This document shows, piece after piece, positions 9,001 to 12,000 of a DNA stretch of 64,000 bases (positions are counted from its first letter, which is position 1; every line of letters starts with the position of its first letter). Origin of the DNA: Escherichia coli (lineage in GTDB: Bacteria > Pseudomonadota > Gammaproteobacteria > Enterobacterales > Enterobacteriaceae); assembly GCF_045037415.1 (NCBI RefSeq), contig NZ_CP173438.1; one strand, written 5' to 3'. Position numbers: made by a program.

Positions 9001-12000
9001 AATTCGCCAAAAATTTCCTCGCCGAAACGGGCGACATCCGCGCGGCTGTGCGGCAGTATATGGCTGAAGTGGAGTCCGGCGTTTATCCGGGCGAAGAACA
9101 CAGTTTCCATTGAGGAGTGACGTTGTGTTAATTATCGAAACCCTGCCGCTGCTGCGTCAGCAAATCCGCCGCCTGCGTATGGAAGGTAAGCGCGTGGCGC
9201 TGGTGCCCACCATGGGTAACCTGCACGACGGCCATATGAAGCTGGTCGACGAAGCCAAAGCCCGCGCCGATGTGGTCGTCGTCAGTATTTTCGTTAACCC
9301 AATGCAGTTTGACCGCCCGGAAGATCTGGCACGTTATCCACGGACCTTGCAAGAGGACTGCGAAAAGCTGAACAAACGTAAAGTGGATTTAGTTTTCGCG
9401 CCTTCGGTAAAAGAGATCTACCCGAACGGTACAGAAACCCACACCTATGTTGATGTTCCTGGTCTTTCCACCATGCTGGAAGGTGCCAGCCGTCCGGGAC
9501 ATTTTCGCGGCGTTTCGACTATTGTCAGCAAGCTGTTCAACCTGGTCCAGCCGGACATCGCTTGCTTCGGCGAAAAGGACTTTCAGCAACTGGCGCTGAT
9601 CCGCAAAATGGTTGCCGATATGGGCTTTGATATTGAGATTATCGGCGTACCGATTATGCGCGCCAAAGACGGTCTGGCGCTGAGTTCCCGTAACGGTTAT
9701 CTGACGGCGGAACAACGCAAAATTGCGCCCGGTCTGTACAAGGTTTTAAGTTCGATTGCCGACAAATTGCAGGCTGGCGAACGGGATCTCGATGAAATTA
9801 TTGCCATTGCCGGGCAAGAACTGAATGAAAAAGGCTTCCGCGCCGATGATATTCAGATTCGTGATGCCGACACATTGCTGGAAGTCTCTGAAAACAGCAA
9901 ACGCGCAGTGATTCTGGTAGCCGCCTGGCTTGGCGATGCTCGCCTGATCGACAACAAAATGGTCGAACTGGCGTAATGCTTAACTGGCGCTACGGCTGAT
10001 GGCGCCAGCTATTCATTGCCACGTTATCTGTAAGCGATTATTCATAACGCAGACAACTTAGTTAATCATTTTATCAATCTCAGCAAGAGGTAAATTTGCC
10101 ATCTCTGCAACGTCTTCCCGAGACATTCCTTTACTCAGAAGACGCAGGGCCAGTCTTACCTTCTGGAGTCCCTCTTTATATCCCTTCTGAAATCCCTTCT
10201 CTTCAAACCACTGCGCCAACGTCTGCCTGGTTTCTCTCCGTGTCTTTATTTCCATATGTTCCCTTAATTATCTGGTCAGTTAACAATAACAATTATCTGG
10301 CTATAACTGATAATGCAGATAACTTAGCTAATCAGCTTATCAACCTCAGCAAGAGGTAAATTTGCCATCTCTGCAACGTCTTCCCGAGACATCCCTTTAC
10401 TCAGAAAACGCAGGGCGAATTCCTGTCTTACTTCCTGTCTAACCTCTTGTATTACCTCCTGTCTTACCTCCTGTCTTACCTCCTGCCTTCCCCTCTCTTC
10501 AAACCACTGCGCCAGCGTCATCATAGACTCCCCTCCCGTTTCCCTGTCTCGCAACACACCATAAAACAAATCCGCTTGTTCAGTATGACCGCGTTGCAGC
10601 ATATAGTTTTGCATGGCAACTAACTGACTTCCGCTAGTGTACCCTTCGTCAATCAGCGTGACCAGTTGCTCCAGCAATAACATTAAGTCGCGCTGGCGAA
10701 TATGCTTTTGCAGTAGTTCGAGAATCGCAATCCGCCGGTGCTGCATGATTTCGTCATCCGGCGTGATGGTGATATCCACCAGCGGGAAAGGGTTGTTGTA
10801 AACGCGTCGCGCCAGCTCCGGCGAGTAAAACATATCAAACCAGCACATTGAGAGCGGATAAGGTGTGGCCTCGCCCTGATAAAACAGAATCGGCACCACC
10901 AGCGGCAGCTTATCGTGATCCGCCTCCAGATGCCGGTGCATGGCGGCAATGGCATAGCGCATCATGCGAAAGGTCATTTTCTTATCCGGCTTGCTTTGGT
11001 GTTCAATCACAACATGCAGATAACCCGTACTACCCTGCATCTGTACGGAATAGAGCACGTCAGTGCTGTGCCCTTTCAGGCTTTCTTCAATAAAACTCCC
11101 CGACTCAAGATGCAGCGTGTCGAGGTCACACAGTTCGCGTAGCTCCGCTGGCAAATGGATATCCAGAAAGTCGCGAGCCGTTTCCGCATGCATTAAAAAT
11201 TGTTTAAACACCGCATCATGCGGTGTGGTACTCGGTGCATCCATCTCCCCTGCCTTCCGTGTTGTCTTGCGTGAAGGCAGTATCCAGTCAAGGTGTGCCG
11301 TCGTCAGCCGCCTCTTTAGTGTTTACCGAGCAGCGTTCAGATAAATTTCAATTGGTTACAGGCGTTACATGGCACGCTTCGGCACGGTACGCAAACTGCT
11401 GATGCAAATGCCGTCAGATGAGTAGACACTAAACAAAAATCGGGCAATACTGCGTGAGAATTTCCTCAAAGCAGGCATCGCCTGCTTCGTTAACGACAGG
11501 GTAGAAAGGTAGAAGTTATGATTCGCACGATGCTGCAGGGCAAACTCCACCGCGTGAAAGTGACTCATGCGGACCTGCACTATGAAGGTTCTTGCGCCAT
11601 TGATCAGGATTTTCTTGACGCAGCCGGTATTCTCGAAAACGAAGCCATTGATATCTGGAATGTTACCAACGGCAAGCGTTTCTCCACCTATGCCATCGCG
11701 GCAGAACGCGGTTCGAGAATTATTTCTGTCAACGGTGCGGCGGCCCACTGCGCCAGCGTCGGCGATATTGTCATCATCGCCAGCTTCGTTACCATGCCAG
11801 ATGAAGAAGCTCGCACCTGGCGACCCAACGTCGCCTATTTTGAAGGCGACAACGAAATGAAACGTACCGCGAAAGCGATTCCGGTACAGGTTGCCTGATT
11901 GTTATCCCTGCGGCTGGTTACTCACCAGCCGCGACATCGTCTCCAGCGAATCTGTTCTTAAGATATAAAGTCGTTTTAGTAACAACGGATTATCCCCCGG

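What the first reader, a model, noticed from the sequence alone, without database searches (positions are those of the whole stretch)
9977..10330. 3-prime remnant of a second Rpn-family gene and a ~100-bp direct repeat between panC and yadD
A 65-aa minus-strand ORF (10058-10255) ends with almost the same residues as yadD, and about 100 bp of its 3-prime DNA (10060-10160) is repeated at the yadD 3-prime end (10300-10420). This looks like the footprint of a recombination event that duplicated or replaced the 3-prime part of an rpn gene. Rpn proteins are themselves recombination-promoting nucleases.
Basis: seen in the sequence. Interest (0 to 1): 0.4.

Follow-up and report, generated by a model that had tools for sequence, protein, structure and literature searches.

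The report
Second small antitoxin gene beside rpnC

Summary
The minus-strand ORF 10058-10255 (65 aa) and a direct repeat are there: 10034-10150 matches 10300-10416 (117 nt, 90%), and 10153-10223 matches 10449-10519 (75%). The ORF is 60% identical to the last 68 residues of RpnC (E 2e-22).

The segment did arise by duplication of the rpnC 3' end. But the copy covers exactly the RpnS module, which in rpnC is translated from an internal start and acts as the antitoxin of the Rpn nuclease. The copy has its own ATG and Shine-Dalgarno sequence.

The ORF was intact in all 15 E. coli loci retrieved by DNA similarity. Its specific part is found in 1573 of 5426 complete E. coli genomes. It sits in the same place, with the same 68-nt spacer, in E. 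marmotae and other non-coli Escherichia assemblies. It varies in the same four-residue repeat block as RpnS.

Zhong et al. 2023 (PNAS, PMC10400941) already describe it as rpnCSs, the analogue of ypaA/rpnESs. They also describe its loss by deletion or fusion. Its expression and function have not been tested.

What I add is modest: S-modules are exchanged between the two slots, the strong repeat is specific to this lineage, and the Ss repeat block usually differs in length from the resident RpnCS block. Verdict: real, ordinary, already known.

The parts
10058..10255 (-). rpnCSs: 65-aa free-standing copy of the RpnS (antitoxin) module of rpnC
   Evidence: ORF. 60% identity to the RpnC C-terminus, E 2e-22. 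Matches only the C-terminal positions 213-272 of the 273-position TIGR01784 Rpn model. Intact in 15 of 15 DNA-retrieved E. coli loci. Described as rpnCSs in PMC10400941.
10261..10266 (-). Shine-Dalgarno sequence (UAAGGG) upstream of the rpnCSs ATG (10253-10255)
   Evidence: Read from the sequence. Conserved as AAGGGA or AAGAGA in all loci, including E. marmotae and other non-coli Escherichia assemblies.
10256..10323 (-). 68-nt spacer between the rpnC stop and the rpnCSs start. The first ~45 nt after the rpnC stop form the duplicated 3' stem-loop region.
   Evidence: The 68-nt length is the same in every locus examined, and the promoter-proximal ~45 nt is nearly invariant. No minus-strand promoter or terminator was found. 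The RNA fold is not better than shuffles, z = -0.57.
10324..11244 (-). rpnC (yadD): full-length Rpn PD-(D/E)XK nuclease, the toxin RpnCL, 306 aa
   Evidence: ORF. TIGR01784 at 271 bits. RefSeq annotation of the identical locus.
10324..10524 (-). rpnCS: intragenic antitoxin frame within rpnC (MMTLAQWFEE...), preceded by GGGAGGGGAG
   Evidence: The sequence around the internal start is identical to K-12 rpnC. For K-12 rpnC, ribosome profiling and SPA tagging show RpnCS (PMC10400941).
10421..10504 (-). Array of 12-nt repeats in rpnC encoding (R/I)QEV x6, the hypervariable four-residue repeat block
   Evidence: Repeat family D1, spacing 12 nt. Copy number differs among strains.
10034..10150 (.). 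Direct repeat copy 1: rpnCSs 3' half plus 24 nt after its stop
   Evidence: 117 nt, 90% identical to 10300-10416. E 2e-43.
10300..10416 (.). Direct repeat copy 2: rpnC 3' end plus 24 nt after its stop
10153..10223 (.). Weaker repeat block in rpnCSs (TLAQWFEE plus the degenerate four-residue repeats), paired with 10449-10519 in rpnC
   Evidence: 71 nt at 75%. The core 31 nt is 94% identical.
9984..10008 (.). G+C-rich hairpin between the convergent panC and rpnCSs genes, probably a shared bidirectional terminator
   Evidence: Terminator scan. Fold z = -2.8. Conserved in all loci.
9125..9976 (+). panC (pantoate--beta-alanine ligase), the flanking gene
   Evidence: RefSeq annotation of the identical locus L001.

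Best explanation
ORF 10058-10255 is rpnCSs, a free-standing paralogue of RpnCS, the small antitoxin translated from an internal start inside rpnC.

Origin. It arose by tandem duplication of the last ~240-270 bp of rpnC, that is, the S-module plus a short 3' stem-loop. It then acquired its own start: M-E-I-K-T-R-R-E-T-R-Q in place of ...G-G-E-S-M-M, with its own Shine-Dalgarno sequence.

Expression (inferred). There is no promoter or terminator between rpnC and rpnCSs, and the only terminator-like hairpin lies after rpnCSs. So it is probably co-transcribed with rpnC/rpnCS and translated independently.

Protein (inferred). The product is predicted to be a long helix carrying the four-residue repeats, followed by a small helix-turn-helix-like pair, as in the RpnAS crystal structure. 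By analogy with RpnS proteins it should bind RpnC-type C-terminal domains through the long helix and modulate or neutralise the RpnCL nuclease. Its repeat block differs from the resident RpnCS block in length (22 vs 32 residues here) and in sequence, so its partner specificity probably differs.

Recombination. The two homologous segments also serve as substrates for recombination. Modules are exchanged between the two slots, and recombination across the repeat deletes rpnCSs or fuses it to the rpnC body.

Shown here: homology, boundaries, conservation, variability, module exchange. Shown in the literature: the existence and naming of rpnCSs, the antitoxin role of RpnS proteins, and expression of the analogous YpaA. 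Inferred: expression and antitoxin activity of this particular gene.
For: Repeat and homology.

Boundaries. Clear homology begins at TLAQWFEE, next to the internal ATGATG of rpnC, whose surrounding sequence is identical to K-12.

Domain content. Only the C-terminal 60 positions of the Rpn model TIGR01784 are matched.

Conservation. The ORF, start codon, Shine-Dalgarno sequence and 68-nt spacer are conserved in 15 of 15 DNA-retrieved E. coli loci. Six of these are annotated by PGAP as pseudogenes. The same holds in E. marmotae and other non-coli Escherichia loci, where panC third-position divergence from the window is 0.10-0.23.

Frequency. The Ss-specific DNA is present in 1573 of 5426 complete E. 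coli genomes. K-12 lacks it.

Variability. Among the MEIK-initiated database alleles the repeat block ranges from 14 to 30 residues, flanked by constant parts.

Module exchange. Identical whole modules (3), tails (6) and repeat blocks (5) occur in both the Ss and the RpnC context. The single-copy rpnC of L010 carries the window's Ss tail and 3' flank almost base for base.

Structure. The AF2 model has helices 13-41, 46-52 and 57-64, mean pLDDT 77. The family profile hits PDB 7TH0, 'Recombination-promoting nuclease RpnA', at E 0.0037.

Literature. Zhong et al. 2023 describe rpnCSs downstream of rpnC in some E. coli, its clustering with RpnCS, loss by deletion or fusion, detection of RpnESs (YpaA), and the dependence of RpnCS specificity on repeat number. 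A commentary also notes the second RpnS copy.
Against: No expression data exist for rpnCSs in any strain; the paper tagged only YpaA.

No sigma-70-like promoter was found in the spacer, so transcription depends on read-through from rpnC, which is untested.

Pfam-A gave no significant hit for ORF65. DUF4351 was not matched.

Foldseek against the PDB gave no significant hit and did not list 7TH0 among the top 50.

The repeat block of Ss differs from that of the resident RpnCS in 20 of 21 distinct combinations. By the published +1-repeat experiment, this argues against Ss being a straightforward antitoxin of the resident RpnCL.

In-frame indels are expected from 12-nt slippage, so they are weak evidence for selection. 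Too few substitutions exist in the constant part for a dN/dS test.
Confidence: 0.8

Rival explanations
1. Non-functional footprint: a decaying 3' fragment left by a recombination or duplication event involving an rpn gene. It would be neither translated nor selected.
For: It clearly originates from a duplication. PGAP marks it as a pseudogene 'missing N-terminus' in several genomes. About 71% of E. coli genomes do without it. No promoter of its own was found.
Against: The ORF is intact in 15 of 15 unbiased loci carrying 10 alleles. The ATG, Shine-Dalgarno sequence and 68-nt spacer are retained in other Escherichia species despite 7-8% divergence in neighbouring genes. The duplicated unit coincides with a functional module, RpnS. 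The analogous YpaA is expressed (PMC10400941).
Confidence: 0.07
2. Recombination cassette: the copy matters mainly as DNA. It would be a donor and acceptor for gene conversion that diversifies or switches the specificity-determining C-terminal module of rpnC, with the protein product incidental.
For: Identical modules, tails and repeat blocks are found in both slots. Fusion alleles exist. In the window lineage the Ss tail is of the rpnC type, raising tail identity to 88% against 71-82% in other lineages. The Ss and S repeat blocks vary independently.
Against: A silent cassette would not need a conserved start codon and ribosome-binding site, and both are invariant or nearly so. With the same Ss allele the rpnC array changes by slippage rather than by conversion. 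This reading is not exclusive of a protein function.
Confidence: 0.1
3. Derived from a different rpn paralogue (rpnA, B, D or E, or a plasmid rpn) inserted next to rpnC, rather than from rpnC itself.
For: The 11 N-terminal residues (MEIKTRRETRQ) and about 70 nt of 5' sequence have no clear counterpart in rpnC.
Against: All 187 word-index database hits are RpnC-type or Ss-type. Tails and repeat blocks are shared with rpnC alleles down to identity. The published phylogeny places RpnCSs with RpnCS. Weak residual similarity (RDRET vs RRET) suggests the 5' part is a diverged rpnC sequence.
Confidence: 0.03

Closest known systems
rpnCSs (RpnC small protein, second copy) of Zhong et al. 2023, PNAS 120:e2307382120 (PMC10400941)
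   Same: Same locus, immediately downstream of rpnC toward panC. Same strand. Present in only some E. coli. Homologous to RpnCS. Varies by four-residue repeats. Lost by deletion or by fusion with the rpnC body.
   Different: Nothing essential; this is that gene. The paper gives no coordinates or sequence in the text I could read, so the identification rests on position and homology.
ypaA / rpnESs downstream of rpnE (yfaD) in E. coli K-12
   Same: A free-standing second copy of the RpnS module directly downstream of its parent rpn gene. The protein was detected by SPA tagging (PMC10400941).
   Different: It arose independently from rpnE, not from rpnC. It did not appear among the sequence hits to ORF65.
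Intragenic RpnS antitoxins (RpnAS crystal structure, PDB 7TH0)
   Same: The same module: a long first helix with four-residue repeats, then two short helices. The family profile hits 7TH0 at E 0.0037, and the AF2 model has three helices.
   Different: Those are translated from an internal start inside the toxin gene, so toxin and antitoxin necessarily co-evolve. Here the gene is separate and its repeat block differs from the resident toxin's.
Stand-alone DUF4351 / HTH_Rpn_C small proteins in other bacteria
   Same: Small proteins of 56-99 aa with (K/R/Q)G-x-x repeats followed by LL-x-x-G-M-S-x-E-x-V-A-E...L-P-L were found in the representative search.
   Different: ORF65 does not reach significance against Pfam DUF4351. 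Only weak precomputed PF27070 hits exist for close alleles.

Membership tests
RpnSs (free-standing second RpnS copy; Zhong et al. 2023) | Sequence homology to the C-terminal (S) module of the adjacent rpn gene | tested here: met
   60% identity over 68 residues, E 2e-22. tblastn finds only these two copies in the window. Tails and repeat blocks are identical to other rpnC alleles.
RpnSs (free-standing second RpnS copy; Zhong et al. 2023) | Separate ORF immediately downstream of, and co-oriented with, the parent rpn gene | tested here: met
   68 nt after the rpnC stop, same strand. Same arrangement in all other loci examined.
RpnSs (free-standing second RpnS copy; Zhong et al. 2023) | Variation among strains by four-residue (12-nt) repeats in the first helix | tested here: met
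   Among MEIK-initiated alleles the block between AQWFE and SKGM ranges from 14 to 30 residues, with units such as KGFQ, KGYK, RQEV and KGIE.
RpnSs (free-standing second RpnS copy; Zhong et al. 2023) | Three-helix fold with a long first helix, as in RpnAS (PDB 7TH0) | tested here: inconclusive
   AF2 predicts helices 13-41, 46-52 and 57-64, pLDDT 77. The profile hits 7TH0 at E 0.0037. But Foldseek against the PDB gave no significant match, and 7TH0 was not in the top 50.
RpnSs (free-standing second RpnS copy; Zhong et al. 2023) | The protein is synthesised | not testable with these tools
   Only sequence signals are available: ATG plus UAAGG 6 nt upstream, both conserved. The paper tagged YpaA, not RpnCSs.
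RpnS antitoxins | Binds the cognate RpnL and blocks its nuclease activity, toxicity or SOS induction | not testable with these tools
   Inference only. The repeat-block length differs from the resident RpnCS (22 vs 32 residues). In the published assay, a one-repeat mismatch abolished neutralisation.
Pfam DUF4351 (PF14261) | Significant match to the family HMM | tested here: not met
   No DUF4351 hit for ORF65. Only 2 of 47 aligned relatives reach E about 1e-3.
Full-length Rpn nuclease (Transposase_31 PF04754 / TIGR01784) | N-terminal PD-(D/E)XK nuclease domain | tested here: not met
   ORF65 matches only positions 213-272 of 273 in TIGR01784, at 36.9 bits against a cut-off of 52.1. The upstream 68 nt carry no coding homology.
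Pseudogene / gene remnant | Disrupted frame, or lost start, in at least some carriers | tested here: not met
   0 of 15 DNA-retrieved loci are disrupted, and the start and Shine-Dalgarno sequence are conserved. The sample is small relative to 1573 carrier genomes.

The most novel reading that the evidence does not exclude
rpnCSs is not a redundant antitoxin. Its helix-1 repeat block almost never matches that of the resident RpnCL/RpnCS, and published data show that a one-repeat mismatch abolishes neutralisation. It may therefore serve one of three roles: (a) a stored alternative specificity module that is swapped into rpnC by recombination across the 117-nt repeat, a cassette-type switch of toxin-antitoxin specificity; (b) an orphan antitoxin giving immunity against non-resident RpnC alleles; or (c) a modulator that titrates RpnCS.
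Probability: 0.25. Interest if true: 0.5.

Novelty: already known. Interest (0 to 1): 0.15.

Why it matters
Rpn loci are a recently recognised gene-within-a-gene toxin-antitoxin and antiphage system. The separate second antitoxin copy shows that toxin and antitoxin can be uncoupled, and that the specificity module is shuffled by recombination. For genome annotation the practical point is that this ORF is a real small gene. PGAP currently labels it inconsistently as hypothetical protein, transposase, RpnC/YadD family protein or pseudogene. Its function remains untested, so the locus is a ready experimental handle, but its existence and origin are published.

Tried and rejected
- **Rfam.** An Rfam scan of 9800-11500 found nothing. 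The only match was a sub-threshold fluoride-riboswitch hit, E 0.6.
- **Promoter and terminator scan.** There is no minus-strand promoter in the spacer and no terminator between rpnC and the ORF.
- **RNA fold of the spacer.** It folds no better than shuffled sequence, z = -0.57, so I make no structured-RNA claim.
- **Pfam-A.** A search on the ORF and on a 47-sequence alignment gave no significant family, and DUF4351 was not matched.
- **Sequence search of the PDB.** The single sequence found only a designed repeat protein. The profile was needed to reach RpnA 7TH0.
- **Foldseek.** The AF2 model against the PDB gave only generic, non-significant helix-turn-helix matches.
- **Length matching of S and Ss.** I tested whether the Ss repeat-block length avoids or matches that of the resident RpnCS. 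One of 21 combinations was equal, against 0.84 expected by chance, so there is no signal either way.
- **dN/dS.** The constant 20 N-terminal codons carry too few substitutions to analyse, 0-3 per comparison.
- **O157:H7 and ET82.** The unannotated ~300 nt between panC and rpnC in these strains is not a decayed Ss. It is an unrelated insert that I recognise from memory as ERIC-like.
- **Supplementary files.** Those I could read did not mention rpnCSs.
- **Not run.** I did not scan the genome contigs or metagenome collections, because the known status did not justify the cost.

Full report
**1. The observation**

The window around the finding reads panC (9125-9976, +), a G+C-rich hairpin (9984-10008), a 65-codon ORF on the minus strand (10058-10255), a 68-nt spacer, and rpnC/yadD (10324-11244, minus, 306 aa).

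- 10034-10150 matches 10300-10416: 117 nt at 90% identity, offset 266.
- 10153-10223 matches 10449-10519: 71 nt at 75%, offset 296.
- blastn gives E 2e-43 for the first block and 9e-10 for the core of the second.
- tblastn shows these are the only two copies in the 64-kb window.
- The ORF product aligns with RpnC residues 239-306 at 60% identity, E 2e-22.
- The repeat continues about 25 nt past both stop codons and includes a small stem-loop (GUUNUCUG...CAGAUAA).

The 30-nt difference between the two offsets lies in the array of 12-nt repeats. That array encodes (R/I)QEV x6 in rpnC and a shorter, degenerate KGFQ-KGYK-EGLQ block in the small ORF.

**2. What it is**

Clear homology starts at TLAQWFEE. 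In rpnC this lies directly after ...GGGAGGGGAGTCT-ATG-ATG-ACG. The sequence around that internal start is identical to K-12 rpnC. For K-12 rpnC, ribosome profiling and epitope tagging showed a small protein, RpnCS, translated from an internal start (PMC10400941).

The duplicated unit is therefore the whole RpnS module plus its 3' flank, not an arbitrary gene fragment.
- The small ORF has its own ATG, with UAAGG 6 nt upstream.
- It matches only the last 60 positions of the Rpn family model TIGR01784.
- Nothing resembling a nuclease domain lies upstream of it.

**3. Conservation**

The ORF-specific 175 nt occur in 1573 of 5426 complete E. coli genomes, always on the chromosome. K-12, O157:H7 and many other strains lack it.

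I retrieved 15 carrier loci by DNA similarity, spread over the identity range.
- All 15 have an intact ATG-initiated ORF of 65-77 aa, in 10 alleles.
- This includes six that PGAP annotates as pseudogenes 'missing N-terminus'.
- The N-terminal 20 residues, the Shine-Dalgarno sequence and the 68-nt spacer length are constant.

The same arrangement, with the same 68-nt spacer, occurs in E. marmotae and other non-coli Escherichia assemblies. There panC differs from the window at 10-23% of third codon positions. Those loci were found through called proteins, so their intactness is by construction; only their synteny counts as evidence.

Among the MEIK-initiated database alleles, the block between AQWFE and SKGM ranges from 14 to 30 residues in units such as KGFQ, KGYK, RQEV and KGIE. 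The last helix comes in a handful of haplotypes. This is the variability pattern published for RpnS proteins.

**4. Structure**

A profile built from 47 relatives hits PDB 7TH0, 'Recombination-promoting nuclease RpnA' (49 residues), at E 0.0037. AlphaFold2 predicts a long helix (13-41) followed by two short helices (46-52, 57-64), with mean pLDDT 77. This agrees with the description of RpnAS as a three-helix bundle with a long first helix.

Two tests did not support membership. Foldseek against the PDB gave no significant match. Pfam DUF4351 was not matched. Close alleles carry only weak precomputed hits to PF27070, HTH_Rpn_C.

**5. It is already published**

Zhong et al. 2023 (PNAS; PMC10400941) state the following.
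[quoted passage not shown] - RpnCSs clusters with RpnCS, so it originated from rpnC. YpaA/RpnESs originated independently from rpnE.
- RpnESs is detectably synthesised.
[quoted passage not shown]'

A commentary also notes the second copy. In the text I could read, neither the expression nor the function of rpnCSs itself was tested.

**6. What my analysis adds**

(a) *Module exchange.* Three identical whole S-modules, six tails and five repeat blocks occur both behind the Ss head (MEIKTRRETRQ) and behind the rpnC head (...GGESMM). The single-copy rpnC of strain Z1323HEC0300 (L010) has an rpnC head joined to a tail and 3' flank that match the window's Ss almost base for base. That is a fusion/deletion allele of the kind the paper mentions.

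(b) *Lineage-specific repeat strength.* In the window lineage the Ss tail is of the rpnC type (MANLPLAEIDKMIN), giving 88% tail identity. Other lineages show 71-82%. The striking ~100-nt repeat is therefore partly a lineage-specific result of such an exchange.

(c) *Mismatch with the resident RpnCS.* The Ss repeat block differs in length from the resident RpnCS block in 20 of 21 distinct combinations; here it is 22 vs 32 residues. This is no more than random pairing predicts. The published result that one extra repeat abolishes neutralisation makes it doubtful that Ss simply backs up RpnCS. This is an inference, not a test.

(d) *Different rates of change.* With the same Ss allele, the rpnC array differs in copy number between strains. 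The rpnC array therefore changes faster than the Ss block.

**7. How it most likely works**

- *Shown:* the duplication origin, the module boundaries, conservation, hypervariability and inter-slot recombination.
- *From the literature:* RpnL proteins are toxic DNA endonucleases. RpnS proteins bind them through the repeat-bearing helix and act as antitoxins. The system can defend against phage.
- *Inferred:* rpnCSs is co-transcribed with rpnC/rpnCS. No promoter or terminator was found in the spacer, and the only terminator-like hairpin follows it. It is translated from its own ribosome-binding site. Its product interacts with RpnC-type C-terminal domains, with a specificity set by its own repeat block.

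The rivals are a dead remnant, a purely DNA-level cassette, and origin from another paralogue. They are disfavoured for the reasons given in their entries.

**8. Verdict**

Interest is low, except for the open question of what a mismatched second antitoxin copy does.

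Noticed in passing
L008, L014-L018 (CFT073, CE10, O145:H28 RM13516 and others); window 10058-10255: RefSeq/PGAP names the same intact small ORF four ways: 'hypothetical protein', 'RpnC/YadD family protein', 'transposase', or pseudogene 'incomplete; missing N-terminus'. An ATG-initiated frame with a Shine-Dalgarno sequence is intact in every case.
   Followed up: yes
L012 828-1125 (O157:H7 TX 376-2) and L011 828-1118 (ET82): These strains lack rpnCSs. Instead they carry an insert of roughly 215 nt between the shared hairpin and the panC stop. From memory of the consensus it looks like an ERIC/IRU repeat element. It is unrelated to rpn.
   Followed up: partly
L026 about 1928 (Logan assembly SRR6148326, non-coli Escherichia): A 1-nt deletion frameshifts the nuclease domain of rpnC, while the RpnCS frame and rpnCSs stay intact. 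This would leave antitoxin modules without a toxin, but it may be an assembly error.
   Followed up: partly
L021/L022, L023/L024, L027/L028, L029/L031: Pairs of genomes share an identical rpnCSs allele but differ in the copy number of the 12-nt array in rpnC, for example a 40- vs 56-residue block. The toxin-gene array expands and contracts faster than the free-standing copy.
   Followed up: partly
L002 1701-1900 (K-12 BW25113 rpnC 3' end): The K-12 RpnC C-terminus looks mosaic. Its KGIE/KGIQ block and ...AEIDKVINLI tail also occur behind the Ss head in other strains (P0045, P0067, P0068). The K-12 single-copy allele may therefore itself descend from an exchange or fusion with an Ss copy. The direction cannot be decided.
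   Followed up: partly
window 10096-10359 (+): An 87-codon ORF lies antisense to rpnCSs and the spacer, with a promoter-like site on the + strand at 10286-10314. I treated it as a by-product of the opposite-strand coding sequence, with no supporting evidence.
   Followed up: no
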